NCBI GenBank assembly: GCA_900128395.1
Contig: LT649242.1
Coordinates: 1 to 64,000 of the forward strand
Direction of reading: 5' to 3'
From: Stramenopiles sp. TOSAG23-2
Lineage: Eukaryota
DNA length: 64,000 nt
Positions 1 through 62,527 of the stretch are shown piece by piece. Each line of letters begins with the position of its first letter. The first letter of the stretch is position 1. The position numbers and the translations under genes are program-made. The notes beneath the pieces are model-generated. The model saw nothing but the letters and a program-made list of their open reading frames with translations, did not search any database and was not told where the DNA came from.

Positions 1-177
1 TTGCATCGATAGTTTTCATATAACATTTTAGAAGATTCACCCGTGTGGATTGACACGATATTGAATACTTAATACTTTACCATAGTATCGACAATAACCA
101 TTACGTTTGTAAATTGGTGTTACTTTTTGATATATAGACGACTATATATACAATACGGAATTGCATTGTTACATTTA
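1..177 (-). repeat. Left inverted-repeat arm (partial)
   Basis: ttgcatcgatagttttcatataac...gcattgttacattta is the reverse complement of taaatgtaacaatgc...gttatatgaaaactatcgatgcaa at 5380-5554. Confidence 0.95.
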
Positions 178-188
178 TAAATAAAAGT

Positions 189-1232
189 ATGTCATCTAAT
201 GCCGAAATTAATGACAGATTAAAAGATTGTCTTGACAATTGGGGAATCTTAGAATGTAAGAAAAATATTTCGTTGTTGGCTCAAGTGCATTGTAATGGAA
301 ATGAAGAGTATGTGAACGCTTTTCTTCAAAAAACCATTCCCACATCAATTAACAAGCAGTTAAAATCTTTATCGAATGAGAAGTTATTATTATACCATGA
401 CAGTTATGATGACTTTACTCAAATGCTTATTACAATTTCAAATGATTCATTGATTGTAGAAGAAAATTTCGAGGATAAAAGTATATTTTCTAAATTTATA
501 ACAGACAAATTAAAAAGAAAAGTAGCAAATGATGAAAAAAATTTTGGAACTATTCTTACTTGCTCATTATGTACATGTAGTGTATATGTAAACAATAAAA
601 ATGAAAAAAATTACACAAATAATTGTATTTGTAAAGAACATCTTTTAAATGTGTCAACGAATATTTTCCGTATCGATAAAGAAAGTAACAAGCTTAAGAA
701 GATTTGTGTTTGCTGTGAAAATGAGTTTGCATGTCAAAACTGTGGTTGTTTTAAAGGACCATCATCTACTGATATAAACATTTCTTACTGCAGGCATAAT
801 CATGATAATAATAATACTTTTAATATCAATGTAAAAACTGGATTAAGAAATAAAATATGCCATTATTGTTTAATAAAAGAAAGAGAAGTGAAAAAAGCGA
901 GACGAGAAAAATTGAAAAAGGACAAAGAAAAAACAACATCGCTGTTTAGTAATTGTGTAATTAACATGCATGATAAAAGAAGAGCACCGAGAAAGGCATT
1001 AAATTTTGAGAAACAAGGTATTTGTAAAATTTTAAAAAATTATGAAAAGGATTATTATTCATTTGCAACGCCATTACAAAAAAAAGGATTATTAAAAAAA
1101 ATAAGAAGACAAACAAAAAATATATTTGATATAGAGCGTTTGGAAATATTAATGGAAGGTATTAGAGATGAAAATGTAAAACAAAATACAAATGATGTAA
1201 AAAAAGAAAGTGATACGCGTGAAGCAATTTAA
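189..1232 (+). CDS. Cys/His-rich putative zinc-binding protein with basic C-terminal region; second gene of the element
   Basis: 347-aa ATG ORF starting 12 bp inside the left arm. Contains CSLCTC, CICKEH, CVCC-CQNCGC, CRHNH and CHYC, followed by REVKKARREKLKK. Confidence 0.75.
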   Translation: MSSNAEINDRLKDCLDNWGILECKKNISLLAQVHCNGNEEYVNAFLQKTIPTSINKQLKSLSNEKLLLYHDSYDDFTQMLITISNDSLIVEENFEDKSIFSKFITDKLKRKVANDEKNFGTILTCSLCTCSVYVNNKNEKNYTNNCICKEHLLNVSTNIFRIDKESNKLKKICVCCENEFACQNCGCFKGPSSTDINISYCRHNHDNNNTFNINVKTGLRNKICHYCLIKEREVKKARREKLKKDKEKTTSLFSNCVINMHDKRRAPRKALNFEKQGICKILKNYEKDYYSFATPLQKKGLLKKIRRQTKNIFDIERLEILMEGIRDENVKQNTNDVKKESDTREAI

Positions 1233-1326
1233 AAACAATTTTTGTGTGTGTAAAAATGTTATATTCGTAAAATGTACGTAAAAAATTTGTATGTTAAACT
1301 ACACCGAAAGTTTATTTTTAATACAC

Positions 1327-4300
1327 TTACTCCATTGCAGAAATTTTGTCATTATCTTCAACAGCTAAAGTTCCAAATTCATCCGCATTTGGGCAAATGA
1401 AATGATCCTCGTCTGGATTGTCAAAACTTACACAATTGCCATCGCGGTTTAAATATGTCGGTTTTAAACATGTACAACATGCTTGAAGGTAATTACCTTC
1501 ATAGGAAGGCAATGCAATTGATTGTAAATACCGTTTGGTAATGTTTTGTGCTTCTATAATTTTTTCCTCAGAACCAAAATTATATTTCTTCTGCTCTATT
1601 TTCAATGCTTGAAGATTATATTCTACATCATCATCTAAAATTTTATTGTTACTTTGTTCATTTACATATTTCATATACAATCTTCCACGTTTAAATGTTT
1701 TCATGATATCCCGGCTATCACCTCCTTTCTTTATTATTGCTATGAATGAATTGACCGATTTTAATTCTTGTATTTGACAATCTGGTACAGTTTTTGATTT
1801 CAAGCTATGGACAACTTTATTTAATTCAAAGTCCAACTGTATATGACATTCATTATGGCAGCATGTTTCATCTTCTTTCGGTGTTCCATCGGGAATAGAA
1901 GGTCCAATAACAGTTACGTGATCCATTTTAAATTCCATCCGGTACTTCATTGATCCCCAATCAATTCGAATAATTTGTTTACTATAAACAACATGTAGGC
2001 ATAATTGATTTTTAAATGTATACACCTTGTTGTCACCATAATGTATTTCTTTTATTTTGAACTTGCGTGAATTTGGCGCTTGCTCATTCATAGGAAGTGA
2101 TGGTATAGTTGCCTGAATTTTCGCAATTAGAGTATCTTTCAAAACTTGTTGCGATGGTAATTCACTTCTGCTTAAAGTTGGTTTTATACACTCATATACG
2201 TCGCAATGTGGATCCATCATCCAAGGTTTAAACGTTGGAAGATCATTAGTTAAATTATCTTTCAATCTTAATATTCCAGCAATAGATTTATCTTCAATTT
2301 TATAATTTTTAATAAAAGTTTCTTTTGTTTGTAAATGAGATACATCTTTTCCAGCATACTTGCATGAGCCATAAATACATGTTCCGCAGCATGTATGAAT
2401 ACGTGATTTGGCATCTGGGTATTTTTTACAAATATCATTGTATAAATAATTTGTCCAAGCTAATAATTTTACTTCCTTTTTCTTGTCAACTATCCATTGA
2501 CTAGTAATACTTAACTGTGATCGACGGTTGTTTGTTGAGGCACGTCTATCTCGTTGTACCATCTGGGCTTTATTGCATTTTGCTGCACGCATTGCACGAT
2601 CTCCAATTCCACCAGCATTATTACTCATATCATATTCTTTATTACTTGAAACATGTTGCATTTCCAAACCTTCACCATCTGTTGCAGTTTTCGCTGTCAT
2701 ATTATCCAGGTAATACTTTTCTGAGTTTGTTTTTATACGATACAGTTGCTGCGATAATTCCACCGTGCCTCGCAATTGATATGGCTTAATTGCTTTATTT
2801 GATTCCATGCAACGGATTAAATCCACCAGGAAACATTGGCTTTTAGCTGCATATGGAACACCATCTTTGAAACGGTTTGCATTCATTGTTTGACAAGTAA
2901 CTGCAAATTCATGATTTACCATTTCTCTCATCCTGATAAAATCGCGTTCTGCATCTGAAAGTTTTGAACGATCAGGTAATGATAAACCACAACAAGCACA
3001 TGTTTCATTAAAAAACGGGGAAGTTAAAAATGGGGAAATTAATGCTAATTTCACAGCATCACCGCCATTAATTTTTAACGCACCATTTTCTTCAAGTGAT
3101 CTACTTTCAACTATGAAAGTATTTATTTTGTGGCATTCCCGTAGATGATCTATGTACTGTTTATACATTTTTTTCCCGCCATACTTGAACATCACCTTAC
3201 ACATAAAAACAAGGTGGTTGTTTGACATTGGTGTCATCACCACATGGAACATGCATGCCGCTGCATCATTTATTAACGGTGGCTTTGGCCGTCCAATATG
3301 CGATACGTAATTTGGTGCCATTGCCTCAACCATGTTTGTTCCTCGCATTAATGTTTCGCCATTGACACTACTTCTTAAAATTATACCCGTAGCTAACGTA
3401 AATGGAATTGGCAAGGTCCATCTTGGTAAAACATTTCTGCCTAATTGAGCATATAATCCTCCGCCATCCAAAATAGTATATAAATGCGGAATTTTCATAA
3501 ATTCAATTGTATATGAACTATCTTCATGATCATTTAACACCAGCGTTTTTCCATTCAAATCTTCTTTTTTAAAAAGTTGATTTATATAAGGTTGTAAATC
3601 TTTGTATTTGTCATTGTCATTTGATAATGCAAATTGTTGAAGATATCTGTGTCCACTAGCTTCTAATAATACAAATTGAATCGTAAATACTGTTTGATTC
3701 ACCGATTTCTGCAACACAACATTTCCAGATGCTAATCGATGTGCATCACTGTTTATTGTATAACAAACTTTAAACGGGCCGTCATCACTTTCATTCTTAT
3801 TAAATTTATCAATTTTATATTTTATTATCTCTAACAGAAGATACCGAAAGCTAGTCTCTTTTTTTAAAACTTCTTTGTAATACTCGAAGCTGCTTGGTCG
3901 TATTGCTAATCCTATAACGTTGTTAAAAACTATCGTCTCTATTTTATAGTCCCGTTGTTGCGCCATTTTTTTTATCGCACTTATTCCACTCACTTTAAAA
4001 TTAAAAGGTAAATACATATTGTGTGTATTATCCACCATTTCTTGTATTATAGGGTGAAAGGCATATTGCCATAGTCTATCAGTCACTTTTACAGCAGTAT
4101 AGATATTCAACATGAACTCATCCATTTCTTCTTTTAATGATTTTTTCCAACTGTTAACTATATACTGATTTAAAACATACGTAAAATATGGTTGAAGTCC
4201 ATAATGTATCAAATCATTACATAAAGCAACTAGTTGATCATTTAAAATCTCAACAGTCTCATTTTCTTCCTCGTCGTCAGTGTCAGTATCCATCATATTA

Positions 4301-5307
4301 AGACTATCATTATTTGCAAAATGTGTCAAATCAGTATCTGTTGCCTCTAACATTAACATCACTATTTTTTCCACAATAGTGGTTCTTTCTCTATTTCTTA
4401 ATTCTGAATACTTTTGCTGCTTCGTTTCACTACCATTACTATTTTTTGTAACGACATCTGTACAAGCATTAATGAAGTTGATTATCTTTTTTCCTTCTAC
4501 GGTTTGTAAGAACGTTGCAATATTACCACCTTTGTTTCCTACATCATCATTGTAAATGAATAAACATTCTTTTCTATTCCCTCCTATGCTTCTAATTCTT
4601 GCTTTGGTAATACAGATTCTAAGTTGATCACATACCTTTTTAAATCCTCCTATATCATTTTGAACCCAACTTTTAATTAATTTGATATCTTCTGATGATA
4701 GTGTTAAAATCATGTTTATCCATTTATAATATTTGCATTTATGATTTAATAATTTTTCAATTATACCTTGTTGCAAATGAGATAAATTCTTGTAATCATC
4801 GGTTGATTTGATTACATCGACAAGTTTATAATAATAGATACCAAAATTTTGGTAATCGTTGTAATGTTTCAAGCATTGTATGCCTAAACACCCAAGCCTA
4901 TCCATCATTTTATCTAAGTAGTTTCTATCTACTGCAGATAGTATAGTATCAACACCTGTATGTGCTTCTGTATCATTGTTACTATGACTAATGCCACTAC
5001 GACGACTTCTTCTTGTAGCTTTGTTTCTTTGATTTACAAGCTGTTGTGTTTTTTTAAACTCTTCAAAATTATCTAAAGTTTTCAATAAATGTAAACAACG
5101 ACGTTCAGCATCTGTTATTACTAATGGTTTTGGTGACATATGTTCACGCATGAACTCATACAGTCGTTTATTGCAAAACAATATACAACTATAATCTTTT
5201 AATCTATCTATTGCATATTTTAAAATAAGCTTTAGATTATCATCCGGTATCTTTTCAAAAGGAAAAGAAAAATCAGTTGCACAACTACCATCATATAAAG
5301 CAGACAT
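1327..5307 (-). CDS. RAG1/Transib/Chapaev-like DDE transposase with F-box-like N-terminus and Cys-rich C-terminus
   Basis: Uninterrupted ORF, first ATG at 5307. Motifs in RAG1 order: GPFKVCYTINSD, NDNDKYKDLQPYINQL, YTILDGG, CMFH, INGGDAVKL, DGEGLEMQH. Confidence 0.75.
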   Translation of the reverse strand: MSALYDGSCATDFSFPFEKIPDDNLKLILKYAIDRLKDYSCILFCNKRLYEFMREHMSPKPLVITDAERRCLHLLKTLDNFEEFKKTQQLVNQRNKATRRSRRSGISHSNNDTEAHTGVDTILSAVDRNYLDKMMDRLGCLGIQCLKHYNDYQNFGIYYYKLVDVIKSTDDYKNLSHLQQGIIEKLLNHKCKYYKWINMILTLSSEDIKLIKSWVQNDIGGFKKVCDQLRICITKARIRSIGGNRKECLFIYNDDVGNKGGNIATFLQTVEGKKIINFINACTDVVTKNSNGSETKQQKYSELRNRERTTIVEKIVMLMLEATDTDLTHFANNDSLNMMDTDTDDEEENETVEILNDQLVALCNDLIHYGLQPYFTYVLNQYIVNSWKKSLKEEMDEFMLNIYTAVKVTDRLWQYAFHPIIQEMVDNTHNMYLPFNFKVSGISAIKKMAQQRDYKIETIVFNNVIGLAIRPSSFEYYKEVLKKETSFRYLLLEIIKYKIDKFNKNESDDGPFKVCYTINSDAHRLASGNVVLQKSVNQTVFTIQFVLLEASGHRYLQQFALSNDNDKYKDLQPYINQLFKKEDLNGKTLVLNDHEDSSYTIEFMKIPHLYTILDGGGLYAQLGRNVLPRWTLPIPFTLATGIILRSSVNGETLMRGTNMVEAMAPNYVSHIGRPKPPLINDAAACMFHVVMTPMSNNHLVFMCKVMFKYGGKKMYKQYIDHLRECHKINTFIVESRSLEENGALKINGGDAVKLALISPFLTSPFFNETCACCGLSLPDRSKLSDAERDFIRMREMVNHEFAVTCQTMNANRFKDGVPYAAKSQCFLVDLIRCMESNKAIKPYQLRGTVELSQQLYRIKTNSEKYYLDNMTAKTATDGEGLEMQHVSSNKEYDMSNNAGGIGDRAMRAAKCNKAQMVQRDRRASTNNRRSQLSITSQWIVDKKKEVKLLAWTNYLYNDICKKYPDAKSRIHTCCGTCIYGSCKYAGKDVSHLQTKETFIKNYKIEDKSIAGILRLKDNLTNDLPTFKPWMMDPHCDVYECIKPTLSRSELPSQQVLKDTLIAKIQATIPSLPMNEQAPNSRKFKIKEIHYGDNKVYTFKNQLCLHVVYSKQIIRIDWGSMKYRMEFKMDHVTVIGPSIPDGTPKEDETCCHNECHIQLDFELNKVVHSLKSKTVPDCQIQELKSVNSFIAIIKKGGDSRDIMKTFKRGRLYMKYVNEQSNNKILDDDVEYNLQALKIEQKKYNFGSEEKIIEAQNITKRYLQSIALPSYEGNYLQACCTCLKPTYLNRDGNCVSFDNPDEDHFICPNADEFGTLAVEDNDKISAME

Positions 5308-5379
5308 TATATCTATATACAAACAGTTATTATATAGTTACGTTTCATATATGTGGTTGTCTATATCTAGAGTAAACAC

Positions 5380-6010
5380 TAAATGTAACAATGCAATTCC
5401 GTATCGTATATATAGTCGTCTCTATTGAAAATTAACACCAATTTACAAACGTAATGGTTATTGTCGATACTATGATAAAGTACTAAGTATTCAATATCTT
5501 GTCAATCCACACGGGTGAATCTTCTAAAATGTTATATGAAAACTATCGATGCAAGTTTTAATATTATATATGCAATATATATGTAATATATATTAAACGT
5601 TATTGTATATATACAAATGTAACACTGGTATTACGTATCGTATATATAGTCGTCTCTATTGAAAATTAACACCAATTTACAAACGTAATGGTTATTGTCG
5701 ATACTATGATAAAGTACTAAGTATTCAATATCTTGTCAATCCACACGGGTGAATATTCTAAAATGTTATATGAAAACTATCGATGCAAAATATGTAATAT
5801 ATATTAAACGTTATTGTATATATACAAATGTAACACTGGTATTATATATTGTATACAGTCGTCTATATCGAAAATTAACACCAATTTACACACGTAATGG
5901 TTATTGTCGATACTATGATAAAGTACTAAGTATTCAATATCTCACTGACCCGCTCAATACGGCCAAGAAGAATGTTATATGGAATCGATCGATGCGAGTT
6001 TTAGATATAA
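5380..6010 (+). repeat. Right inverted-repeat arm built from three tandem units of about 185-235 bp (5381-5614, 5615-5825, 5826 to about 6010)
   Basis: The block aaaattaacaccaatttaca.acgtaatggttattgtcgatactatgataaagtactaagtattcaatatct occurs three times; the third unit is visibly more diverged. Confidence 0.95.
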
Positions 6011-6140
6011 AATATCAATATGTATATCTATTTTACTATATTATATATTATCTCTCTCTTTCTTTATCTTTCAGTCGAACTATATATATATATATTATAA
6101 TGTATTACTATTGAAAAAATAGTCCACAATTGTGCATAAA

Positions 6141-6488
6141 ATTTGCAAATCTTTTTTTAATAAAATTGAATTTATAGAGTAATGTTAAGGTATATTAAAA
6201 TATCGCAATGGTCGTACTTTGGCGTTCCGATTGCGTATGGATAGTATAAATAATGGCATCATAATCAACAATGGCCTGCCTTAGCGCCTGCTGGAAATGT
6301 GGAATGTTGTGATGATTTGCAAATCTTTTTTTAATAAAATTGAATTTATAGAGTAATGTTAAGGTATATTAAAATATCGCAATGGTCGTACTTTGGCGTT
6401 CCGATTGCGTATGGATAGTATAAATAATGGCATCATAATCAACAATGGCCTGCCTTAGCGCCTGCTGGAAATGTGGAATGTTGTGATG
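6141..6488 (+). repeat. Exact 174-bp tandem duplication, possibly an assembly artefact
   Basis: atttgcaaatcttttttt...tgttgtgatg starts at both 6141 and 6315. Confidence 0.9.
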
Positions 6489-6664
6489 AAATAAATCAAA
6501 TAAAAAATTATTCAAAAAATAAATAAATAATAAAAATAGGCAGCACATAATAATTTCAATAATACCGACCGACCTGGTATAATAGCAATAATAATTCGAA
6601 ACAATCAATAATCATAATAATAAATAATTATTCTAATAATCCAGAAGATCTTTGTATAAACAAT

Positions 6665-6907
6665 ATGTCGGATACGTTGTCTGCAAGTCAACATGCTGCT
6701 AAAAATTATGGTGGTTCTGCATCGGACTCATCGCTAAGTGCATCTGAGTTAAGACGTCGTCATGGAGTTAGAAACAATAATCAAGATTGGGCTAATAAAG
6801 CAGCGCCTGGTGTATCTGTCAATGGCGATGATGGAAGTACAATGATTATAGGTGTTGTTGCTTTGATATTATTTATAGCAGTCGTTGCATTTTTCGTTCG
6901 AGGTTAA
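6665..6907 (+). CDS. Small tail-anchored membrane protein, unknown function
   Basis: 80-aa ATG ORF with coding-like composition and a C-terminal hydrophobic helix (MIIGVVALILFIAVVAFFV) followed by RG-stop. Confidence 0.65.
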   Translation: MSDTLSASQHAAKNYGGSASDSSLSASELRRRHGVRNNNQDWANKAAPGVSVNGDDGSTMIIGVVALILFIAVVAFFVRG

Positions 6908-7243
6908 TATATATATGTTTTTATTGCAGTTATATTATTTCTTGAAATTTCCTATCGACGAATTGATGAGGAATTGGATTTCTACCACATGTAGAGATAT
7001 ACAAACTGCGATTATTAAAACTTGCGCTTATAATAATCGTTTTGCTTTAAAATGTGCATTTGGTGAGTCGTACAATGACTTGTACCCCGGTACAATTTAT
7101 TCTCCGCCTTCCTATGATGTTCGTTTTTCATCAACTGCTACGAGTAGTTGATACCATCTATTTACCTTCATTGGTTTTCTCTATTATGGGAATATCAACA
7201 CATTAGTGTGAGATAGATTATTTCAGTTATCATATTGTATGAT

Positions 7244-7270
7244 ATTCTTTTGAAGAGTAGGAATTATCAT
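7244..7270 (+). repeat. Dispersed intergenic motif ATTCTTTTGA(A)GAGTAGGAATTATCAT, copy 1
   Basis: Same core at 14902, 31377, 41371, 62372 and 62504. About 7184-7290 also matches about 31327-31420. Confidence 0.9.
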
Positions 7271-7532
7271 CCATGAGTAAATTAAAAAACAAATAAATTA
7301 ATATATATATATATGCGTAAATTATTCTTTTATATATCATATGATATCATATCCTATTGTATCCTATACCCATCATATGATATCAATATGTATAATAATA
7401 TATGATATGCATATGCAAGTATGATATGATATCATTTAAACCAATCATACAATAAATATTTAAAAATAATATATGCTCTTTTTTACCACCACATACTTTT
7501 TTCGTATTATCTTGGCCTATATCATCATGCTT

Positions 7533-8318
7533 TTACGAATTAAACAAATTATATAAAAATGCTATACCTGCCAAGACAATACTAGCTGTGTGAGTTGATT
7601 TATGTAAAATTGCCCCTGGACCACAATCCATTTCTTCATAAAACGTTTCTTCATCTACTCCTGAATAAGACGAACCACAAGATTGACAGAAATTCTTAAA
7701 GTAACCGCCTTCTACCCTTGAATAATCGTCATCGCCTTCGCCCCAACATTCCCATAATTCTTTACATAACCAAAACATTGATGATTTTTTGCAATAGCCT
7801 ACTTCCTCGCAAGAACATTTAGAAACTGTTTTTCGTTTTGTAAAAGCCAAAAAATCGTATTTAGCGCACATACCACTACATGCTGCACCATGTTTCTCGT
7901 ATCTTCGTGGAGGGCCAAATCTCCCTGTCTTCAAAGTTTTCATGTCATCTCTACAACATTTTTCGAATTCGAAAATATGTCTTTCATTTGACAACGCTAA
8001 CTTTCGTACTTTGCATTCATCTGTTTCAAGCCCCAAAGGCTCGCAATCTGCTTTACTGCTGCATATAGTACCACCAGTAGGTTTACCATTTTTGTCTAAA
8101 TCGCCATAATCTGCACAACGACTAAAAAGAGCACAGGATCGATGGGCCGATTCTTGCACCAAGTAATCATTCCACTTCTTTAAATCACATTTCGAAGGGT
8201 TTACAGGAGCTTCGGTAGCTGCCGTGTCTTGAGAATATACAAATGGCACGTGACTACATATTATAATGACTAAAACAAAAAGACTGGTATTAATAATACA
8301 AGATGAAGCTATAGTCAT
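7533..8318 (-). CDS. Secreted or GPI-anchored cysteine-rich surface protein
   Basis: N-terminal signal-like segment ending VYS-QD, many cysteines, hydrophobic C-terminal tail with no cytoplasmic region. Confidence 0.8.
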   Translation of the reverse strand: MTIASSCIINTSLFVLVIIICSHVPFVYSQDTAATEAPVNPSKCDLKKWNDYLVQESAHRSCALFSRCADYGDLDKNGKPTGGTICSSKADCEPLGLETDECKVRKLALSNERHIFEFEKCCRDDMKTLKTGRFGPPRRYEKHGAACSGMCAKYDFLAFTKRKTVSKCSCEEVGYCKKSSMFWLCKELWECWGEGDDDYSRVEGGYFKNFCQSCGSSYSGVDEETFYEEMDCGPGAILHKSTHTASIVLAGIAFLYNLFNS

Positions 8319-8844
8319 GTTTACTATCGGGGAAAGGATTCACACAAGCTGTATATAGTAATTGCTTTGGTAATATGATATTATTAATTTGTATATATGT
8401 AAATTGCAATATATATATATATGAAAACAATATACTTTCGTAGATTGTATTATCTTAATTTAAATATAATAACGGGCGAGATGTAAATAATCATTTACAT
8501 TGTATGTGATAATATATTAATTAAAACAAAAGTAGTGTGCTAGTTGCAACCCAGCAAACCGGCAAACCACCGGCAAAGTGTGTGCAAAAAAAAAACTACT
8601 AGCCAATAGCAAAAAAGGCTGGCCTGGCTGGCAATAGCACCAGGAATAGAATGGGTTATATATACCTTAAATACAATATTTAAAAACACTGAATCGAGTG
8701 AGATATTTGAAATTCTCTCTATTGTGTACAAAGGTTGTACATACTGGTATGTGGTACAAAATATCATTAACATGTGGTATGATGCATATGACATTATATA
8801 AAATGTATAATATATATACAATGTATATATATATATCACATAAT

Positions 8845-11208
8845 TTACGCATTACTTGGTAATCGTGTTGCATTATCTTTTTTAGGTTCGTCTTCGTCCA
8901 TAGCTTTTTCCTCTTCTATTTCTTCTTCACTCATAAAATATTTTCCATTGGCTAATAACTTCAACAACAGTAAGCAAACTTTTAAGTTTTTTTTTTGTTT
9001 AACATTATGATACATTGGGCCATCTAACATATTATACATCATATCCGCAACACCATCTTCCTTCAGTTCATTAATTTGTGATAATTGAGCTAATAAATTA
9101 CACGCAGTTGAAAATTCTTCTTTTGTAATTGCTTCTTCACCTGTTTTCGTTCCATCAAAATATATGTACAATGGCCTTGAGAATTTTAATACATATGCTT
9201 GGACATTGCGTTTTTTAGAATCTTTTTTCTCTGTCAAGCCTTTATCAAATAAAAATTGTTGGTAATTGACTTCATTGGTCTCTAAATCCATTTCATCCCA
9301 ATCTATTATATCACTTCTATCCATTAACCAAGGTACATGTAATCCAGTCCCAGCTTCCATGACTTGGGCCCACTCTAAGATGGTAACCATTCCCGTTTTT
9401 TTATAATCTATTTTATGAAAACCTTTTTCCAAATCTAATAAATGCTCCCTCACTGCATTAGATAAACCTCTCACTACAGTACGAACGTAAATAATATGAA
9501 CTTGTTAGAAAATTTGATCGTTGTACAATGTGTAATTGATTATTTCTAATACAAGATGATACTTACAATAATGATAATGTTTATCACGTTTCCCACCCTT
9601 AACTGAAAAGCTACATGGATGTATTTGTAACTCGTTTTTTTCTACTAGTAAGTATCCTCCAAGATTCGATTTATTGCCAAAATACGAAGATGCGCTGAAA
9701 ACGCGAATGCAATGCGCGACATCATCTTTGTAACCATCTTGTAATGGTGATCCAGATATAATAAGAGTATTTAAATTGCAATTCTCTAATACACGTTGTA
9801 CATGCTGAGTGTCGTACAATATACTAATTCCACGATCTTCGTTAAAGCTGATGTTGGCAGATTTATCATACAAGTCACTCCATAAAATGTCTTGAACTAT
9901 GCAATGATTTCTTTCCTCCTCCGTCATCTGCATTAAATCAACAGAGACGCCAATTTTTTGGAAAAGATTGCCTACATTTGCTTCATTGCCACGTTTAATA
10001 TTTTTAACAGATTCTAAATCTATCCGTTCATCTCTCCATATCCCACTGTGGCAAATCAGACATTTTTCATATAATTGTATACATAATGGTAGAAAATGAA
10101 ATAAATCATGTAAGGATACAAATAGTTTATGTAAAGTAGCCTGATTTTCCGTAGTTGGAATATAAATGGAACATATTTCATGCACAAACCCAAATTTTAA
10201 ACTATAAGATGCATGTTCGTGATTACCACGTAAGAAGTAAACTGATTCAGGTTCTGCAATGCTCCACAGCATAATCATTGTCAAGCAATGTATGCTTTTC
10301 GGTCCGTAATTAATGATATTACCGGTAAATATATATGGTTTGTTTTTTGTAGGAACCCCGTTATCATCAATAATTTCCATCAAATCCTCGAAATGCCCAT
10401 GCAAATCTCCAACAATAACAAATAATGGAATATTGCTTTTTTTCTTTGGTAGTGATATAAGAGTTTCTTCTAGTTTAATAATGTTATTATACGCTTCTAT
10501 GATGGTTAAAAAATCATCCAATTCTAGATATGAATTTGCTTCTGTTGTTTTGCGAAAAGATTGTAAAACTGCATTGATATTATTTGAAGAATATTGGAGT
10601 TTTGAATTTTTTTTATTTGGAAATGGAAATGTTGTTTTCATCGTCGTTACATTCCTATCCATGCACAAATTATGTTTTTCAATTCTTTTGGAATATACAT
10701 TTTCATAAAAATTAGTATATTTTGTTGCGTGCCGCTCAAAAAATAACTCTAGTTGATTTCTATTTCTCCAAGTTGTTTTTTGAATTAATATCTTTTCCGC
10801 GCCTCTCTTTCTAACAAGTTTTTGAATCGTTATACAGGCTCTTCCTTCTTCTGTTTGATTCCGAGCGTCTTCCTCCATCTGTGATTCCCATGTATCTTGC
10901 TTCTCTGTTGCAGCTACCGTTTTCATACGTTCATTTGATAGTGAATCCATATGTTGCAAAGCTTTTTGAGCTTCGCGTACCATAGCTTCCGATTCCTCTC
11001 TCTTAATATTCTTTGGAACTGGCGTAACAATTTTGATTTGCTGGTTAATGGGATCAGAGTTATTGTTGTTATTATTGCTTTTGTTAGTAGTAGTATTAGT
11101 AGTGCTAGTTGCGTCAGTATTTGTATCCCTCTCCTTCTTTGCCATTATTGAGTTACCATTATCAATCTTCTGAGTTTTATTCTTCTTTTTAGATGCGCCA
11201 CCTCCCAT
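8845..11208 (-). CDS. PPEF/rdgC-like Ser/Thr phosphatase with IQ and EF-hand regions, probably catalytically degenerate; one intron at 9474-9566
   Basis: MGGGAS myristoylation-type start, IQ motif (ITIQKLVRKRG), GDLHG, RGNHE and DILWSD. Intron GTAAGT...TTCTAAC...TGTAG joins the 567-aa and 209-aa ORFs in frame. Confidence 0.85.
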
Positions 11209-11855
11209 GTTATTTACTTATTACCGTGGTTGGTATTATTAGTTACAGTTAAGAAGACGAGTATCCAATTTATGCGCCACAATATAATCAACGATAATTT
11301 ACAACAAACTCATAGGCGTATTAGTTTTTGTTGAGTGTGTGTTTCCGTGATGTGTTTTACAAATACGATAATATGTAATATGTGAGTATAATATTATATT
11401 ATTGCAACGTGCTATTATTGAAGAAATAATAATACCTATTTATTTTTTATTGCCAGGTAGTAGGATTATGATTGCTGGATTGCACTATTATTTACTATTA
11501 TTATTAATATACTATTATCAGAACAGTATACTATAGTACTATAATATAATACTGGTATAACCATATTAATACCAGACCAATACTATAATAAAATAAAAAA
11601 ATGCCAGAGAAGTGTAAAATTATTATAACTTTTAGATTTTAACCATCATAATATCATATAATATCGTATATATACATGAGTAAGAGAAAATTTTATATAA
11701 TATGAAGTGTGGAAATACACAAGCACTTCATTATGAAGTAATATTCAACCGAGGGTGGTGAACATTAAATTAATATGTATATGAAGATCCAACAGAGTCT
11801 GAATTGCTGGAGGAAGTGTTTTGTAATATATATATATATATATGATGTGTGGTTA

Positions 11856-12563
11856 TCAATTCTCGTACCCTGACCTATCAATATTGGGAACAGGTGCTAT
11901 GCATTGATTCGCAACTAGTGCTTCGTAATTAGAATTAAGCATTTCTTGCATGCATTGCCCGCAAGATGGAGCCATTTGATTATACAGACACTCGTCGCAG
12001 CACGCGTCCACCATTATATTTGCGCATTGCACCGAAGCACCTCCTTCCCTCACCCCGTAGGTTTTGAATTCATCACACGTTTCAAATGTACCTGGCGGTG
12101 GAGGATAACGTTCTCCAACCAAACGGCGTAATGGGTGAGAGCGGCTTAGTCTCCTTGCTGAACGCATCCCACCATGATTACTGCCGTACCCTGACCTATC
12201 AATATTGGGAACAGGTGCTATGCATTGATTCGCAACTAGTGCTTCGTAATTAGAATTAAGCATTTCTTGCATGCATTGCCCGCAAGATGGAGCCATTTGA
12301 TTATACAGACACTCGTCGCAGCACGCGTCCACCATTATATTTGCGCATTGCACCGAAGCACCTCCTTCCCTCACCCCGTAGGTTTTGAATTCATCACACG
12401 TTTCAAATGTACCTGGCGGTGGAGGATAACGTTCTCCAACCAAACGGCGTAATGGGTGAGAGCGGCTTAGTCTCCTTGCTGAACGCACTCCATGCATTCT
12501 AGCGTCCATCCTCTTGACACTGTATACTAGTAAAATAGCCACTAATATAACTATTTTATTCAT
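11856..12563 (-). CDS. Secreted prepro-polyprotein with two identical Cys-rich units
   Basis: Signal peptide, RRL-containing pro-segments, and two copies of an 8-Cys unit. Confidence 0.8.
   Translation of the reverse strand: MNKIVILVAILLVYSVKRMDARMHGVRSARRLSRSHPLRRLVGERYPPPPGTFETCDEFKTYGVREGGASVQCANIMVDACCDECLYNQMAPSCGQCMQEMLNSNYEALVANQCIAPVPNIDRSGYGSNHGGMRSARRLSRSHPLRRLVGERYPPPPGTFETCDEFKTYGVREGGASVQCANIMVDACCDECLYNQMAPSCGQCMQEMLNSNYEALVANQCIAPVPNIDRSGYEN
11864..12487. repeat. 303-bp identical direct repeat, period 321 bp, inside the CDS
   Basis: 11864-12166 equals 12185-12487, separated by an 18-bp unique in-frame linker. Confidence 0.9.
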
Positions 12564-13377
12564 CTTGTCTGCGTCACCAAAATTTACCTTGTGTTCCTAT
12601 CTAACTATGTAAGATATTCAAATTATATATTAGTGATGTAAATATTAAGATAATAAATTCAACATAAGGCAGAAGGCATCCCTTGTACTGCTGTATCTAA
12701 TTTTTTTAATTATTATTTTTTTTTTTATCGTGTAATTTAATACATAATAATTATGAAGAATAATAATAAAAATAATATTAATAATAGTATATAAAATAAG
12801 AAGGGAAATACTATTATACTGCTGGTAAAAAATTGACGAATTTCACTGTGCTGAAATTATTTTTTTTTTTACTTTTTTTCCCTTCTTTTTTTTTTGTTGA
12901 TGTCTTGTACTTCTTCAACTTCACCTATACCCTATTATACTAATACCACACCACTCCATCGCACCAATATGAGATGCAAGGAAACAAGGAAACTTACTCT
13001 GAATGTGTTTTCATAGGCATATAATTTTAAAAAATATAAAAACTAAGTACGCTAAACAACTATTATATATATAATACTATTTTACATTATATCTTTTTTC
13101 ACACAAATTTCTTCATCAGATTTATTATTCCAAAATTATGAACTATACGCTGTGGTAGTACGGATACTATAATACTGGATTAATTACGGTTATTATTATT
13201 AAAAAAATATATTAATACTAGTATTAATATTAAATGTTAATATTAAAAGTAAAATAACTCTGAACACAATAAAAACGTCTATTGCGTCAAATATATTATA
13301 TATATTATAAATCTAGTCAAGTGTGTACATCAAAGGTTCTCTTACTGTAATTTTATTTTTATATATTTTCGATATAG

Positions 13378-14641: not shown

Positions 14642-14901
14642 AACGTATGATAATCAAATAAAAAATACGAAGTACGTGGGGCGAGTATTGATGTATGATA
14701 CATACACTCTCTTTTGCGCATATATTTTTTACAAAACTAAAAAAAACAGTACATATGGTGGGTTAATTAAATATATATTATACGAAGTATATACGAGTAT
14801 GATACGTATATATAATATATATAATACATTAAAATAAGAGAATTTTTTATATAATTACATACTTTTTTGTAGAGTATTTAATATTGGCTCAGTCACTGTG
14901 T

Positions 14902-14927
14902 ATTCTTTTGAGAGTAGGAATTGTCAT
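14902..14927 (+). repeat. Dispersed intergenic motif, copy 2
   Basis: attcttttgagagtaggaattgtcat. Confidence 0.9.
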
Positions 14928-15112
14928 GAGTAAGGGAATAAAAAATTAAAATACGCGTGTATATAAATTTTTAATATTTTACTTGTTGTACGAATCATAA
15001 AAAAATAATGTCATACTCATATATCATACAAAGTACGTTCGTGTACAAATATTATACACCGCCGCTCTATCTCTGAAAAAAAACATTTTTTTCAACACGC
15101 GGGTTACTTTTA

Positions 15113-30881: not shown

Positions 30882-31376
30882 GACACATGATTTGTTTGGT
30901 TTGATGTTTATATTTAAAAATAAAATGATGTGATATGATGATAGATGACGTTTCGTCTATTTCTCTCTCCTAATTTTTTTCAACGCCGGGAGAATAATCC
31001 ACATGTTATACAAAAATATAAAAATGACAAGTCGTAAAAAAATATATTATATATGTGATAAGAAATGCCGTTCATAAATTTTTCATATGCTTATCATCAA
31101 CGTTCTTGCGTGTTTCGAAGTTCGTAGATTTTACTTTATAAATTATGTTGTGGTGACACTTTTTAAAGATTTACAAAAATATTTACGACGTATGGAACGA
31201 ACAAAATGGACCGTGCGTTCGTACGACGAAAGTAAATGTGAATAAATGAAAGAGTGAGGAGAGATGCAATTTTTTTGAATCTAGTACAGATATGATATAA
31301 TATATACGTTGGATTGGTATTTTCGATTATGAGAATATCAACACACTTGTGTGAGATAGATTATTTCAGTTATTTT

Positions 31377-31403
31377 ATTCTTTTGAAGAGTAGGAATTAT
31401 CAT
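31377..31403 (+). repeat. Dispersed intergenic motif, copy 3
   Basis: attcttttgaagagtaggaattatcat. Confidence 0.9.
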
Positions 31404-31654
31404 GAGTAAATTAAAAATAAATTATGCGCGTATAAATTAAATTATATATGCAACGTACAGAGTACCGTGTATTATACGTACGGGTTTGTATTTTACGACT
31501 TCGGTGTGTACAAAAATAATAATACTCGAGTGTATTTCTTCTCTTTGCTGGTTTTTAATTTTATTTTTTTTTACATTTTTTAATCTTCCAAAACCTCAAA
31601 CACCTTCTTGTATATCACATACAAAACCATATAATATATAATACATATTCGTAT

Positions 31655-36935: not shown

Positions 36936-39900
36936 ATGGCCAAATTTTTATCAGAACAAGATTTTATCTTTCATCGAATTGATGGTAGTAGTGATAGTGA
37001 CAATGCAATAATAAAAGATACTGCATTAATATTAAATCAAGAGTGGCCAAATATCAAATTACAATCAAGAATTGAATGGTTATCTCGGAGTTCGATTAAT
37101 AACTTACCAGCATCTTGGGTGTTATTAAATACTAATAATAAAGCAATCGCGCATGTGCGACTTTCAACTAAGTACAAAGAAGAACAGAGTATAAGCAATA
37201 ACAACAATAACGATAACAATGTCAAGAAAAATTTACGTGAAAATATTTCTGTAATTGCGACGTCTGTTGTTGTTGCGAAACAACTTCGTGGCCTTGGCGT
37301 AGGTAAAATTTTGTTAAAAAAAATGCATGAATGCTGTTTTGACTTGGGTTTTGGCAGAGTAGTATTATGGACAACCGATGCTGTCGGGTTTTATTTAAAA
37401 TCAGGATATAAAAAAATTCAGCCGTTGAAAAAGAATATCCCGAATGTAATTGCAAAACATTTTTCAGATACATCATTAGATAATTTACGCAATGTCTTAA
37501 TGAAAAAGCGAAAAAGTATCAATAATAATAATAACAATAATAAAACAAACCAAAAAATAGCTACAAGCGAATCAGTAAGTGAAATTTTAGACGGTGATTC
37601 AAATTTAGAAAATAACACTTGGCTTGCTTTTCGAGTTCGAAGTTCCTTTAAACCATTTTATCGTAATAAAAAAGCTATGGAAGAAGAAATGAATCATTTA
37701 TTAGAGAGTGGGCATTTCACTAATAAACAAACTAATAATGATGTTGACGAATTGAAAACTACATACATTAATCATGTCCCATTTGAAAATCAAATTGGTC
37801 CTATGTGTGGTATCTCGGCATTAAATTGTATGAAAGAATATTTTAAGAACACAGTCAAAGCAAAGAATTTGGATATTAATTCAATACAGGTTGATAAGAT
37901 TATTATAAAATCTAAAGATGCTGATGGTAATAATATTGTAATGGAAAAATACAAATCAAATAAAAGTGGATGGGGGAAATCATGTTCAACAATGTCATCA
38001 TCATCATTATCATCACAGCAACAACAACAACAACAACAACCTATCTCAATTTTAGAACAAGCGCAGAAAGAAAAGATTACAACAGACGGGGAATTATTTG
38101 ATATTAAAAAAATTGGTAAATTGGCAGCAATGGATGTTTGTGATTTAAATTCAGTTGTTGTTGAACGTATGTCATTACGTCTTATCATAAATTTATTGTT
38201 AAATCGATTGCCTGTATTAATCTGCTACGACAGATCGTCATCTTCATCTATTTATGGTGTCTCCATGAAAAAAGGTAAAGCGGCGCATTGGGCTCTTATT
38301 GTTGGTTTCATACTAACAAAACAAATGAGGGATAGCAATAGTCATATGTTAAATACTAGCAATAGTGATAATAATGGAAAATACAAATATGTCTGGTTAG
38401 ATGAACATAAAACAAATATCCAACAACATGCCATTCATTATGCTGTTGATGATGATTGTAACGATGATATCAACAATGATCCAATACTGATATTGCAGCA
38501 TGGTATGTCTCAAAAAGTATTATTTTGCCCTTGGAGTAAGTTAAAAGCATCAAACTTACAAGTTGAGGAATATGCAAGAACCTTATCAGAAGATAATTCA
38601 CTGCGCTATAAAAAGTTAGAATGGAAACATATTTCAAAACCAACCTTGAAAAATTGTATTTTATTTCTTTATCCAACATTATCAGAAACATTGCAAAAAG
38701 AGAAATGGTCAAATGTCCTAGATGCGTATTGCAAGACAAATTATTACATAGATATAACATCCTCGCAAGCAATTAATCAAGTCAACGTTATGATAAATCA
38801 TGAATTACCAAAACAATTGTTAGATTGGTTATTTACATATACAAATTCATATCGTACAGAATGGTTCATAGCTACTGCATTTAATCCAAATTCAAAGCCA
38901 TGCGACGTTGCCACGAATTTACAAGAAAACGATGTACTAGAGAAATACATTATTGAAAAAAAGTGGTTATATTTAAAAGGTATAGGCCAAGATCCAAACA
39001 TGGAATGGCCAGGTGAAAATCACTTTTTAATATGTGCTACTTATATGGATGCAATGGAAATTATGGCTCGTTTTCATCAAAACGCAGTCGTTGTATCCTC
39101 ATCTGCCATAGTAAATGATCAAATGATTCAAAAATTACCAAATCTTCATGCAAAATTATTATTTAATAATGGTTACGTCTACCCACCCCACAAAGAGGAG
39201 GATGATAAAGAAGCGCACATAGAGGATATACTACCTCCAAATAATACAAGAAGAAGAAGAAGAAGACAACGTACTCGGCATGAACCACTAATTGAGAATA
39301 AACGCCCTATTAATTTAGTATTAATCGGTGGAGGTGTTGCAAGTATAAGTTGCATTGATACTATTCTTGACATTGCAAATTTAAATGAGTCGAATGAAGC
39401 TTCAAGTATTGAAATATATTTAATTACCCCGTCAGAGAATATACAAAGATTGAAAAAAAAACGGCGATTATCAAGTTATTTAAAAGAATATGAGATAAAA
39501 TATGAAAATGCTGCGATATTAGCAAATAAAGGTGTTAAGGTAATTCAAGATACTGCAAAAGGTTTGAATATGGAAGAAAAGCAAGTTTTGTTGGAGTCAG
39601 AAAATATCGTATCATTTGATAAATTATTTATTGGTACAGGCGCTTTGCCGAATCTACTTTTTCGTTCCCCATTCTGTCTTAGTGTACGAGACAAAGCAAG
39701 TGTAATCGATCTAGGTAAGCGTGTTAGCACTTCTACACATGTTGTCATTGTTGGAAATGGTGCTATTGCAATGGAAATGGTTGAAGCCTTGCGTGGTACT
39801 ATGATCGACATAACTTGGGTAGTAAAAGACAGTTACGTTGGCAATACATTTTTTGATCAGAGTGCATCTGCATTTTTTCAATCAAAAATATTTGAAAATA

Positions 39901-41033: not shown

Positions 41034-41370
41034 AAAGTGCAAAAGGGGAGATTAAAAATATCTCATTCTGTTGCGCATTCTTGATATTTGTGTTTACGTA
41101 ATAAAGAGCTTATTTTTATATTATATATTACGTATAATCATATCATAATCATATCATATCATAGTCACATATATCATTAAATTTATTTTTATATTTTTAA
41201 ATAACTTATATATAATGGTGGTTAAAATCTAAGTTATAACTTAATGATATGTCATTTGATTTTATCCATCATTATCATACGAAGCGTTCGTATTATATAT
41301 ACGCGTACGATCGTATCATACTCGTACTTCGCACTTCGTAGATATTAAATATTTGGCTCAAACACTATTT

Positions 41371-41396
41371 ATTCTTTTGAGAGTAGGAATTATCAT
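41371..41396 (+). repeat. Dispersed intergenic motif, copy 4
   Basis: attcttttgagagtaggaattatcat. Confidence 0.9.
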
Positions 41397-62277: not shown

Positions 62278-62371
62278 TATGTGTGTGATCAAAGTGGATA
62301 TGTATATTATGCATATATATATATATTTCCCACCATATTATTTATATGATGTGTGTGTGTGTATTAACATA

Positions 62372-62527
62372 ATTCTTTTGGAGAGTAGGAATTATGCATA
62401 TATATATATTAATATTTTACATGTGTGTGTGAGTAAAAAAGTATATATATATATATTTCCCACCATATTATTTATATGATGTGTGTGTGTGTATTAAAAC
62501 ATAATTCTTTTGGAGAGTAGGAATTAT
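62372..62527 (+). repeat. Dispersed intergenic motif, copy 5, locally duplicated (62372 and 62504)
   Basis: attcttttggagagtaggaattat occurs twice. Confidence 0.85.

What the first reader, a model, noticed from the sequence alone, without database searches (positions are those of the whole stretch)
1..6134. ProtoRAG-like architecture in a protist: two convergent genes, one RAG1-like, between long inverted repeats
Seen: 1-177 and 5380-5554 are inverted copies. They enclose two intact, intronless, tail-to-tail ORFs 94 bp apart, each starting just inside an arm (ATG at 189 and 5307). Known: amphioxus ProtoRAG has convergent RAG1L and RAG2L between TIRs; maize MuDR has two convergent genes driven from TIRs of about 200 bp; Transib normally encodes one protein. 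Inference: this is a probably intact two-gene transposon related to RAG1/Transib/Chapaev, in a non-animal host, with a partner that is not RAG2. I do not recognise it as a described family.
Basis: partly seen in the sequence, partly recalled or inferred. Interest (0 to 1): 0.9.

Follow-up and report, generated by a model that had tools for sequence, protein, structure and literature searches.

The report
Transposon-like two-gene cassette, marine protist
Two unknown, back-to-back genes of a marine protist sit between inverted blocks of a tandem repeat and look like a rare, possibly new kind of jumping gene, but a link to the RAG1 immune-system recombinase could not be shown.

Summary
The anatomy is real. 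ORF1 (189-1232, +, 347 aa) and ORF2 (1327-5307, -, 1326 aa) converge 94 bp apart, and each starts just inside an inverted repeat (177 nt, 94%).

The arms are not a simple TIR pair. The right arm is the first of three tandem units of about 210-234 bp. The left arm is cut by the window start and runs on in a related metagenome contig.

Both proteins are orphans. Pfam, NCBIfam, PHROGs, PDB sequences and a 5.8-billion-protein search gave nothing. A 1.84-billion-protein scan gave eight short fragments. AlphaFold failed (pLDDT 33-37), so the RNase H fold is untested.

The only link to transposases is a language-model lead for residues 480-880 (scores 0.90-0.92: Plavaka, Transposase_21, RAG1 fragments). 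A weak motif order fits it.

Read depth fits one copy per genome, and no ends, target-site duplication or empty site could be seen.

Wild populations hold intact alleles at 95% identity, so ORF2 is kept open (P about 0.01 under neutrality). dN/dS is 0.65-0.97. Two independent internal deletions with microhomology junctions exist, as in non-autonomous transposon derivatives.

Verdict: a transposon-like or transposon-derived cassette is most likely (about 0.45). Membership of RAG1/Transib is not shown.

The parts
1..183 (.). Left arm: one unit of the arm repeat, inverted relative to the right side and cut by the window start.
   Evidence: 1-177 vs 5380-5554 at 94.4%; 1-183 vs 5608-5788 at 90.7%. 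L001 continues 55 bp further into the inter-unit spacer.
189..1232 (+). ORF1, 347 aa. Cys/His-rich centre (residues about 125-227) and a basic C-terminal half. Orphan; proposed zinc-binding accessory or DNA-binding protein (inferred).
   Evidence: No family hit. Only 92-94% identical copies found. Of the 15 listed members of a 33-member cluster, 13 are 347 aa. 15 distinct sequences with 40 variable columns.
1233..1326 (.). 94-bp spacer between the two convergent stop codons.
1327..5307 (-). ORF2, 1326 aa from the ATG at 5307. Orphan; proposed divergent DDE-type transposase (inferred).
   Evidence: no full-length relative other than alleles at 95-100%. P0029 (1274 aa, 99.8%), P0035 and P0041 (1327 aa, 95%); polyA metatranscriptome contigs at 1305-1524, 2068-2215, 2279-2429 and 4896-5147.
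3448..3867 (-). ORF2 residues 481-620, the least variable block. Predicted strand-strand-strand-helix-strand order. Candidate acidic residues D521, D593 and D614.
   Evidence: 2 variable sites in 140 residues, against 66 in the other 1186; two low-confidence models agree on the order of elements (inference only); language-model lead for residues 480-880.
2989..3000 (-). C770-x2-C773, a C(2)C motif downstream of the candidate second D.
   Evidence: Invariant in the 4-sequence alignment.
1843..1857 (-). H1151-x3-H1155, an H(3)H motif inside a CCHxxCH cluster, followed by E1161.
   Evidence: Invariant. The motif order arises in 423 of 2000 shuffles, so it is weak evidence.
5380..5554 (.). Right arm, unit 1 (innermost).
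5608..5788 (.). Right arm, unit 2 (97% to unit 1).
5819..5997 (.). Right arm, unit 3 (degenerate, 72% to unit 1 over 174 nt).
1057..4521 (.). Segment missing in a wild deletion variant. ORF2 codon 262 is joined to window 1056 (minus strand) with the 4-bp microhomology TATT.
   Evidence: P0010, P0039 and P0001 (4 contigs in all); microhomology.
1163..4160 (.). Segment missing in a second, independent deletion variant, with 2-bp microhomology.
   Evidence: table 5: run X3, joint 1162->4161, one contig, depth 6.0, 51 letters on the shorter side..

Best explanation
This is a single-copy, transposon-like two-gene cassette. It is most likely a low-copy cut-and-paste DNA transposon, or one immobilised only recently, of an undescribed lineage.

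Proposed working (inferred):
- ORF2 is a very divergent DDE (RNase H-like) transposase. Its catalytic core would lie around residues 510-620, with Cys/His zinc modules downstream, as in the CACTA/Mirage/Chapaev/Transib ('CMCT') group.
- ORF1 is a zinc-binding, basic accessory protein.
- The arms are inverted arrays of a tandem unit of about 210-234 bp. They carry the promoters of both inward-facing genes and probably the transposase binding sites.

Shown:
- the anatomy;
- the absence of recognisable relatives;
- depth that fits a single copy;
- selection that keeps ORF2 open while amino acids drift;
- internal deletion variants in the wild;
- RNA contigs laid on ORF2.

Inferred:
- transposase activity;
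- the catalytic residues;
- the role of the arms;
- mobility.
For: 1. Inverted arms abut both start codons.
2. A language-model feature search of ORF2 480-880 gave scores of 0.90-0.92. Besides unnamed eukaryotic clusters, it hit clusters carrying Plavaka (19% of members), Transposase_21 (51%) and RAG1 RNase_H/ZnC2/ZnH2 (95-100%). All ten best hits that carry a family share one family or clan.
3. The least variable part of ORF2 is 481-620, with 2 of 140 sites variable against 66 of 1186 elsewhere. Both low-confidence models put strand-strand-strand-helix-strand there.
4. A C(2)C motif (770), then H(3)H (1151), then E follow the candidate D residues. This is the order that passages of PMC12730594 give for CMCT and RAG1.
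5. ORF2 is intact in two further alleles with 61-65 amino-acid differences. The chance of no stop codon under neutrality is 0.007-0.028.
6. dN/dS against L001 is 0.65 (ORF2 C-terminus) and 0.97 (ORF1). An open frame under loose amino-acid constraint is typical of transposon genes.
7. Two independent internal deletions keep both arms and both 5' gene parts. Their junctions have 4-bp and 2-bp microhomology. This resembles deletion derivatives of DNA transposons.
8. In the contigs shown for X3 and X4 the element differs more from the window than the flanking genes do: 1.4-1.7% against 0.4% (my sums, table 8; 32 pieces are shown and 1077 more are not).
9. Distribution is very narrow. Only 8 true hits, all fragments at 32-99% identity, came from 1.84 billion representatives.
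Against: 1. Depth fits one copy. In X1 the contig over 93-5429 has depth 100.8 against 142-151 for the flanks. In X3 the figures are about 5-7 against 5.4-5.6. The arms reach only 1-2x.
2. There is no second copy in the 64 kb.
3. No outer termini, target-site duplication, empty site or second insertion site could be seen.
4. No known transposase family matched: Pfam at E<=10, NCBIfam, PHROGs, or PDB sequences with the single sequence and with a profile.
5. The language-model scores carry few shared features (125-147 of 256). The tool states that 4-10% of shuffled proteins reach 0.9, and that a third reach 'all ten share a clan'. The whole protein gave no usable hit.
6. The motif order arises in 423 of 2000 shuffles.
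7. Codon usage matches the host genes, r = 0.94. The element is therefore a long-term resident or native.
8. Deletion variants could simply be structural alleles of a dispensable host locus.
Confidence: 0.45

Rival explanations
1. An ordinary lineage-specific host gene pair that is not mobile. Two fast-evolving orphan genes share a duplicated, inverted upstream repeat that acts as a co-regulating promoter. The deletions are segregating structural variants of a dispensable locus.
For: - Depth fits a single copy.
- Codon usage is like the host genes.
- PolyA metatranscriptome contigs lie on ORF2, as they do on the neighbouring genes.
- The reading frames are kept open.
- No transposase family was detected.
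- The pair is linked to its right flank by an X1 contig (record 2).
Against: - dN/dS of 0.65-0.97 is high for host genes.
- Two different multi-kb deletions that remove the same central part are unusual for a functional host locus.
- The language-model lead points to transposases.
- The element differs 3-4 times more from the window than its flanks do.
Confidence: 0.3
2. One reading: a true member of the RAG1/Transib (RAG-like) lineage with a ProtoRAG-like partner gene.
For: - RAG1 fragment clusters (RNase_H, ZnC2, ZnH2, pre-RNase_H) appear among the language-model hits at 0.89-0.90.
- The two genes converge between inverted repeats, as in ProtoRAG (passages of PMC10462144).
- The order C(2)C then H(3)H then E is present.
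Against: - No Pfam RAG1 hit at E<=10.
- No hit to any PDB chain, a set that includes solved RAG1, RAG-like and Transib entries (that these entries are present is recalled).
- No CACNGTG lies in the arms.
- The arms are tandem units of 177 nt or more, not short asymmetric TIRs like those described for Aureococcus RAGL (PMC9435367 passages).
- Plavaka and Transposase_21 clusters score as high or higher.
- ORF1 shows nothing RAG2-like: no kelch or PHD hit.
Confidence: 0.06
3. A remnant of another selfish or viral element, such as an insert derived from a giant virus or virophage, or a linear plasmid-like element with inverted ends, now fixed in the chromosome.
For: - Orphan, AT-rich, intronless genes sit between long inverted repeats.
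- Distribution is very narrow.
Against: - No relative was found in IMG/VR by peptide patterns: ORF2, ORF1, and alignment A2 of ORF2 residues about 320-536 with three distant fragments.
- No PHROG hit better than E 0.15 and no match in the phage collection.
- Codon usage is like the host.
- There is no capsid, polymerase or integrase gene; only two genes are present.
Confidence: 0.08

Closest known systems
CMCT group of DNA transposons (EnSpm/CACTA, Mirage, Chapaev, Transib, Plavaka, ESTA, Lanisha) and RAG1
   Same: - The named language-model hits for ORF2 480-880 are Plavaka, Transposase_21 and RAG1 clusters.
- C(2)C and H(3)H motifs followed by E lie downstream of the candidate D residues. 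This is the hallmark given in PMC12730594 (sections read).
- New lineages of this group, such as ESTA, were likewise recognisable only by HHpred.
   Different: - No sequence-profile match to any of these families.
- The termini (5'-CA..TG-3') and a 2-5 bp target-site duplication could not be read.
- The arms are inverted tandem arrays rather than short TIRs.
- The element is single-copy.
ProtoRAG / RAG-like transposons (amphioxus; Aureococcus AanRAGL)
   Same: Two single-exon genes lie between inverted ends. They converge as in ProtoRAG (PMC10462144 passages). A stramenopile alga already hosts an active RAG-like element (PMC9435367 passages).
   Different: - Those elements are recognisable as RAG1-like and RAG2-like by sequence; here neither gene is.
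- Their TIRs are short and asymmetric, start with CAC, and come with 5-bp target-site duplications.
- Here the arms are units of 177 nt or more, without a heptamer.
MuDR (maize Mutator) and Foldback-type elements (both recalled, not tested)
   Same: - MuDR (recalled): two convergent genes driven from TIRs of about 200 bp, with frequent internal deletion derivatives.
- Foldback elements (recalled): long inverted ends built of tandem subrepeats.
- Here each ORF starts 6-73 bp inside an arm, the arms are tandem units, and internal deletions exist.
   Different: - No MULE transposase family (MURA-type, name recalled) was among the Pfam hits, which were none for either whole ORF at E<=1 and only three unrelated families for pieces at E<=10.
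- Copy number is about one.
- The repeat unit here (210-234 bp) is much longer than Foldback subrepeats (recalled).

Membership tests
RAG1 / Transib | Sequence similarity of the transposase core to RAG1 or Transib profiles | tested here: not met
   No Pfam family at E<=1 for the whole ORF2, and no RAG1 family at E<=10 for its pieces. No PDB chain at E<=10 with the single sequence or with a profile. The newest RAG1 sub-domain model PF26104 is not in the local Pfam copy, so it was not tested. PF26100 and PF26101 were not checked for.
RAG1 / Transib | RNase H-like catalytic fold with a DDE triad | tested here: inconclusive
   The AlphaFold2 models have pLDDT 32.7 and 36.8. Foldseek and VIA-align gave no meaningful match. 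Only the order of predicted strands and helices, and the candidates D521, D593 and D614, are compatible.
RAG1 / Transib | TIRs that start with a CAC heptamer-like element, and a 5-bp target-site duplication | tested here: inconclusive
   No CACNGTG lies within 1-190 or 5380-6050. All 7 window matches lie elsewhere, against 6.5 expected by chance. The outer ends are not in the window, so termini and target-site duplication cannot be read.
RAG-like (two-gene) transposon | A partner gene that is RAG2-like (kelch propeller, often with a PHD finger) | tested here: not met
   ORF1 has no Pfam hit at E<=10. It is a 347-aa Cys-rich, basic protein.
[quoted passage not shown] | [quoted passage not shown] | tested here: inconclusive
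   C770xxC773, or C974xxC977, is followed by H1151xxxH1155 and then E1161. All are invariant in the alleles. The order arises in 423 of 2000 shuffles, and the D and E residues are not established.
CMCT clade | 5'-CA..TG-3' termini and a 2-5 bp target-site duplication | not testable with these tools
   The left end is cut at window base 1. No genome is held.
Any cut-and-paste DNA transposon | Mobility: several copies or polymorphic insertion sites, empty sites | tested here: inconclusive
   Depth fits one copy, and no other copy lies in the window. Internal deletion variants exist, but their genomic site is unknown.
KDZ / Plavaka / Transposase_21 (Pfam models) | A match to the family profile | tested here: not met
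   No such hit at E<=10. These families appear only as language-model leads: Plavaka on 19% and Transposase_21 on 51% of cluster members. Whether each model is in the local Pfam copy was not checked.

The most novel reading that the evidence does not exclude
The cassette is the founding member of an undescribed lineage of CMCT/RAG1-type DDE transposons. It has its own convergent, non-RAG2, zinc-binding partner gene and inverted tandem-array ends, and it has been recently active in a cosmopolitan marine protist. The independent internal deletion derivatives would be the sign of that activity. This would be a second, independently assembled 'two-gene RAG-like architecture' outside animals.
Probability: 0.2. 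Interest if true: 0.8.

Novelty: new variant of a known kind. Interest (0 to 1): 0.5.

Why it matters
If ORF2 is a CMCT/RAG1-type transposase, the cassette adds a deep-branching lineage that profiles cannot see. Its two-gene, convergent layout bears on how RAG1 and RAG2 came to be paired, and on how often transposases recruit partner genes.

It would also be a rare case of a near single-copy transposon whose population dynamics can be followed directly in ocean metagenomes: intact alleles, deletion derivatives and expression.

If it is only a host orphan pair, it is an ordinary fast-evolving locus.

Tried and rejected
Searches that found nothing:
- Whole-genome search and laying the genome: none is held.
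- Phage collection, megablast of 1-6500: no match.
- 5.8-billion-protein search for ORF2 relatives of 729-2321 aa: none. The 'shorter' search gave only fragments at 96-99%.
- Whole-protein ESM Atlas search: no usable hit.
- PDB sequence searches for ORF2, ORF1 and profile A3: nothing, apart from a chance ribosomal-protein row at E 1.2.
- Pfam on whole proteins and on nine sub-pieces at E<=10: only sub-threshold DUF7786, DUF3536 and Cyclin_N rows.
- NCBIfam and PHROGs: nothing better than E 0.15.
- IMG/VR scans with ORF2, ORF1 and alignment A2: none. Alignment A3 was unusable for a scan.
- Prokaryote genome scan: none.
- Rfam over 1-13000: none.
- tRNA scan: none.
- Telomere repeat: none.
- CACNGTG heptamer: at chance level and absent from the arms.

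Results set aside:
- P0009 (3811 aa, E 4.7e-4) is an RTX-repeat protein, rejected as spurious.
- AlphaFold2 of ORF2 351-1326 (single sequence) and 471-880 (4-row alignment): pLDDT 32.7 and 36.8. Foldseek 'pdb' and VIA 'pdb_via_wide' on the second model gave only generic matches. No fold claim is made either way.
- The sigma-70 promoter scan is irrelevant for a eukaryote: 57 found against 46 expected.
- The genome search by family on L001 was not possible.
- Joints with only 20-26 letters on the shorter side (for example 1052->7318 and 4769->7284) were set aside, as they touch a high-copy repeat.
- N-terminal ORF2 fragments end at codons 62-174 with 2-4 unmatched residues. They may be further junctions or contig-end noise; this is unresolved and they are not counted.
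- Parts of the element with no RNA contig in X19, including ORF1, are not evidence of silence.


Full report
**Setting**

The window is AT-rich (28-40% GC in 2-kb steps). It is densely packed with long uninterrupted ORFs that carry eukaryotic domains: calpain, a PLU-1/PHD protein, acetyl-CoA synthetase-like, and trehalose-phosphate synthase/phosphatase with CBM20. It has three N runs, so it comes from a scaffolded draft. No whole genome is held. The first 8 kb are held, nearly identical, in two small runs of one organism and in part in many marine metagenomes. ORF2 also stands in EukProt under a gene-model name (P0029). The host is therefore a marine microbial eukaryote. I did not try to name it.

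**Observation**

- ORF1 (189-1232, +, 347 aa) and ORF2 (1327-5307 from its ATG, -, 1326 aa) converge, with 94 bp between their stops.
- Window 1-177 is an inverted copy of 5380-5554 (94.4%, E 1.7e-75).
- ORF1's ATG lies 6-12 bp inside the left arm. ORF2's ATG lies 73 bp inside the right arm.

Two corrections apply:
- The right arm is the innermost of three head-to-tail units, at 5380-5554, 5608-5788 and 5819-5997. The start-to-start spacings are 234 and 209 nt, and the outer units are increasingly degenerate.
- The left arm begins at window base 1. In metagenome contig L001 (96.5% identical to window 1-3001) the similarity runs 55 bp further, into the spacer that joins right units 1 and 2.

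The flanks are therefore best described as inverted tandem arrays whose outer ends are not in view. No other copy of the arm or of either ORF lies in the 64 kb.

**What the proteins are**

Neither ORF matches any profile library:
- Pfam: no family at E<=1 for either whole ORF. At E<=10 the sub-pieces gave only sub-threshold DUF7786, DUF3536 and Cyclin_N rows.
- NCBIfam: none. PHROGs: nothing better than E 0.15.
- PDB chain sequences at E<=10: ORF2 alone and as a small profile found nothing. ORF1 found only a chance ribosomal-protein row at E 1.2.

Large protein searches found little:
- The 5.8-billion-protein search found no relative of similar length. Among shorter proteins it found only fragments at 96-99% identity.
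- For ORF1 it found only copies at 92-94% identity.
- A full HMMER scan of 1.84 billion representatives with ORF2 residues 127-1326 gave 9 hits at E<=0.001.
- One of the 9 is an RTX-repeat protein and is spurious. The other eight are short fragments.
- Two of the eight are 97-99% identical (P0001, P0002). Two are 72-79% (P0006, P0007). Two are 51-52% (P0003, P0008, over ORF2 about 618-759). Two are 33% (P0004, P0005, over ORF2 about 337-496; 28-31% in alignment A2).

So a small, old, very narrowly distributed family exists.

AlphaFold2 failed twice (mean pLDDT 32.7 and 36.8). The fold searches on the second model returned only generic matches.

**Leads toward a transposase**

- *Language-model lead.* The whole protein gave nothing in the ESM Atlas. 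Residues 480-880 gave scores of 0.90-0.92. Hits were unnamed eukaryotic clusters plus clusters carrying Plavaka (19% of members), Transposase_21 (51%) and RAG1 RNase_H/ZnC2/ZnH2 (95-100%). All ten best hits that carry a family share one family or clan.
- *Its limits.* The shared feature counts are low (125-147 of 256). By the tool's own figures, 4-10% of shuffled proteins reach 0.9, and a third reach 'all ten share a clan'. It is a lead, not a test.
- *Conservation.* Among three alleles, the least variable block of ORF2 is residues 481-620, with 2 variable sites in 140 against 66 in the other 1186. I chose the bins after seeing the data.
- *Secondary structure.* In that block both low-confidence models place strand-strand-strand-helix-strand. 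This is the order of an RNase H-like core. D521 ends the first strand, D593 ends the fourth, and D614 follows. This is inference only.
- *Motif order.* Downstream lie C770xxC773 and C974xxC977, then H1151xxxH1155, then E1161. All are invariant in the alleles.
[quoted passage not shown] The same order appears in 423 of 2000 shuffles, so on its own it is weak.

**Population evidence**

*Alleles.* The exact-sequence look-up opened up many wild alleles.
- The ORF1 cluster has 33 members. Of the 15 listed, 13 are 347 aa, one is 318 aa (starting at an internal Met) and one is a 127-aa fragment.
- The window's ORF1 and 14 of those members (15 sequences, the 127-aa fragment left out) are all distinct. 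They are 92.5-99.7% identical pairwise, with 40 variable columns.
- The ORF2 cluster has 24 members. Of the 15 listed, three are full-length: P0029 (1274 aa, 99.8%), and P0035 and P0041 (1327 aa, 95%; 61-65 differences and one extra residue).
- Their contigs reach 5230-5553 nt, which is close to the arm-to-arm length of 5554 nt.

*Selection.*
- Under neutral substitution, the chance that 65 missense changes accumulate in ORF2 with no stop codon is 0.007-0.028. Selection therefore keeps ORF2 open.
- For ORF1 the same test is weak (0.14-0.28 for 24 changes).
- Against L001, dN/dS is 0.97 for ORF1 (6 synonymous, 26 non-synonymous changes) and 0.65 for the last 558 codons of ORF2 (13.5 and 36.5).
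- At most 3 of the 11 gap positions of that alignment fall in the 2715 coding bases.
- An open frame with loose amino-acid constraint fits a transposon gene or a fast-evolving host gene.

*Copy number.*
- In the source-like run X1, one contig covers 93-5429 without a difference, at depth 100.8 against 142-151 for flanking contigs.
- In metagenome X3 the element contigs have depth about 5-7 against 5.4-5.6 for the flanks.
- In X4 the figures are 2.8-9.1 against 13.7-19.3.
- The arm bins reach only about 1-2x.
- This is single-copy depth, so there is no proliferating family.

*Divergence from the window.* In the contigs shown in table 8 the element differs more than the flanking genes do. These are my sums over 32 shown pieces; 1077 more pieces are not shown.
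- X3: 51 differences in 3722 nt (element) against 11 in 2835 nt (flanks).
- X4: 22 in 1329 nt against 18 in 4462 nt.
- This is about what near-neutral evolution at one locus would give. It is also what older, separately evolving copies would give.

*Expression.* A polyA-selected metatranscriptome (X19) has small contigs on ORF2, at 1305-1524, 2068-2215, 2279-2429 and 4896-5147. Neighbouring genes have such contigs too. This suggests ORF2 is transcribed, though DNA carry-over is not excluded.

**Deletion variants**

- Three database proteins (P0010, P0039, P0001; four contigs in all, the longest 3010 nt) read ORF2 codons 1-262 (window 5307-4522, 99% identical). They then continue, at 100% identity, with window 1056-964 on the same strand.
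- This is an internal deletion of 1057-4521 (3465 bp). Its junction has 4 bp of microhomology, too short to be a k-mer misjoin.
- Independently, a contig of metagenome X3 joins 1162 to 4161, skipping 2998 bp. Its depth is 6.0, it has 51 letters on the shorter side, and the microhomology is 2 bp.
- Both deletions remove the 3' end of ORF1, the spacer and most of ORF2. Both keep the two arms and the two 5' gene parts.
- This is the classic shape of non-autonomous derivatives of cut-and-paste transposons. It could equally be structural alleles of a dispensable locus. Where these variants sit in the genome could not be checked.
- Further N-terminal ORF2 fragments stop at codons 62-174 with a few unmatched residues. 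They may be more junctions or contig-end noise, and I do not count them.

**Comparison with known systems**

- RAG-like transposons are recognisable by sequence. They have short asymmetric TIRs that begin with CAC and give 5-bp target-site duplications. An active one is already published from the stramenopile alga Aureococcus (passages of PMC9435367 and PMC10462144). 'RAG-like in a protist' would therefore not be new in itself.
- Here the RAG1 profiles do not match, the arms carry no CACNGTG, and ORF1 is nothing like RAG2.
- The local Pfam copy lacks at least one of the newest RAG1 sub-domain models (PF26104), so that model was not tried. PF26100 and PF26101 were not checked for.
- The closest kind by the available leads is the broader CMCT group, whose deepest branches (ESTA) were likewise found only with HHpred.
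- In layout the cassette also recalls MuDR (convergent genes driven from long TIRs, deletion derivatives) and Foldback elements (inverted ends made of tandem repeats). Both resemblances are recalled, not tested.
- No viral link was found.
- Codon usage is that of the host genes (r = 0.94 for ORF2).

**Verdict**

- The transposon reading is plausible and gains from the deletion variants, the open but loosely constrained ORFs and the language-model lead.
- It loses from single-copy depth, unseen termini and the total lack of profile or fold evidence.
- My odds: about 0.45 for a transposon-like cassette of an undescribed lineage (active or recently fixed); 0.30 for a non-mobile host orphan pair; 0.08 for another selfish or viral remnant; 0.06 for true RAG1/Transib membership. 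The rest is open.
- I did not see the supplement of PMC9435367. Its Fig. S1 shows RAG1-like fragments in other unicellular eukaryotes and may bear on novelty.
- Literature searches made.

Noticed in passing
window 6972-7290, core about 7170-7290; also 31313-31417, 14901-14953, 41370-41396, 62372-62395, 62504-62527; and about 11609-11690: A short dispersed repeat. Depth runs into the thousands in X1, X3 and X4 over 6801-7600 and 11601-12000. There is an 83% copy at 31313-31417, and 24-58-nt matches to its core at four other places. It may be a MITE-like element or a common UTR/terminator motif of this genome.
   Followed up: partly
window 6141-6488, 11864-12487, 59860-60008, 60705-60981, 61011-61299 (also 62313-62566, 62656-62972, 63476-63695): There are many two-copy tandem duplications of 74-321 bp at 94-100% identity; five of them are perfect. 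Together with the N runs at 46304-46415, 48701-48731 and 49142-49219, they may be scaffolding or assembly artefacts rather than biology. The one at 11864-12487 lies inside an ORF.
   Followed up: no
window 36936-41033 (+): A 1365-aa ORF fuses several domains: GNAT acetyltransferase, actin-maturation-protease-like C-terminal domain, DUF3293, pyridine nucleotide-disulphide oxidoreductase and rubredoxin-reductase C-terminal domain. This is an unusual multi-domain fusion.
   Followed up: no
window 43664-48226 (-): A trehalose-6-phosphate synthase/phosphatase fusion with an N-terminal CBM20 starch-binding domain. The ORF is interrupted by an N run at 46304-46415.
   Followed up: no
window 6665-7151 (+): Two short overlapping ORFs (80 and 88 aa) in different frames are covered by polyA metatranscriptome contigs at 6645-6935 and 7029-7230. 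This may be one small spliced or frameshifted gene right of the cassette.
   Followed up: no
proteins P0003, P0008, P0004, P0006 (relatives of ORF2): The distant relatives end or begin in unrelated, hydrophobic, low-complexity tails, as if the gene callers ran into introns. Relatives in other organisms may be intron-bearing, unlike the intronless ORF2 here.
   Followed up: no
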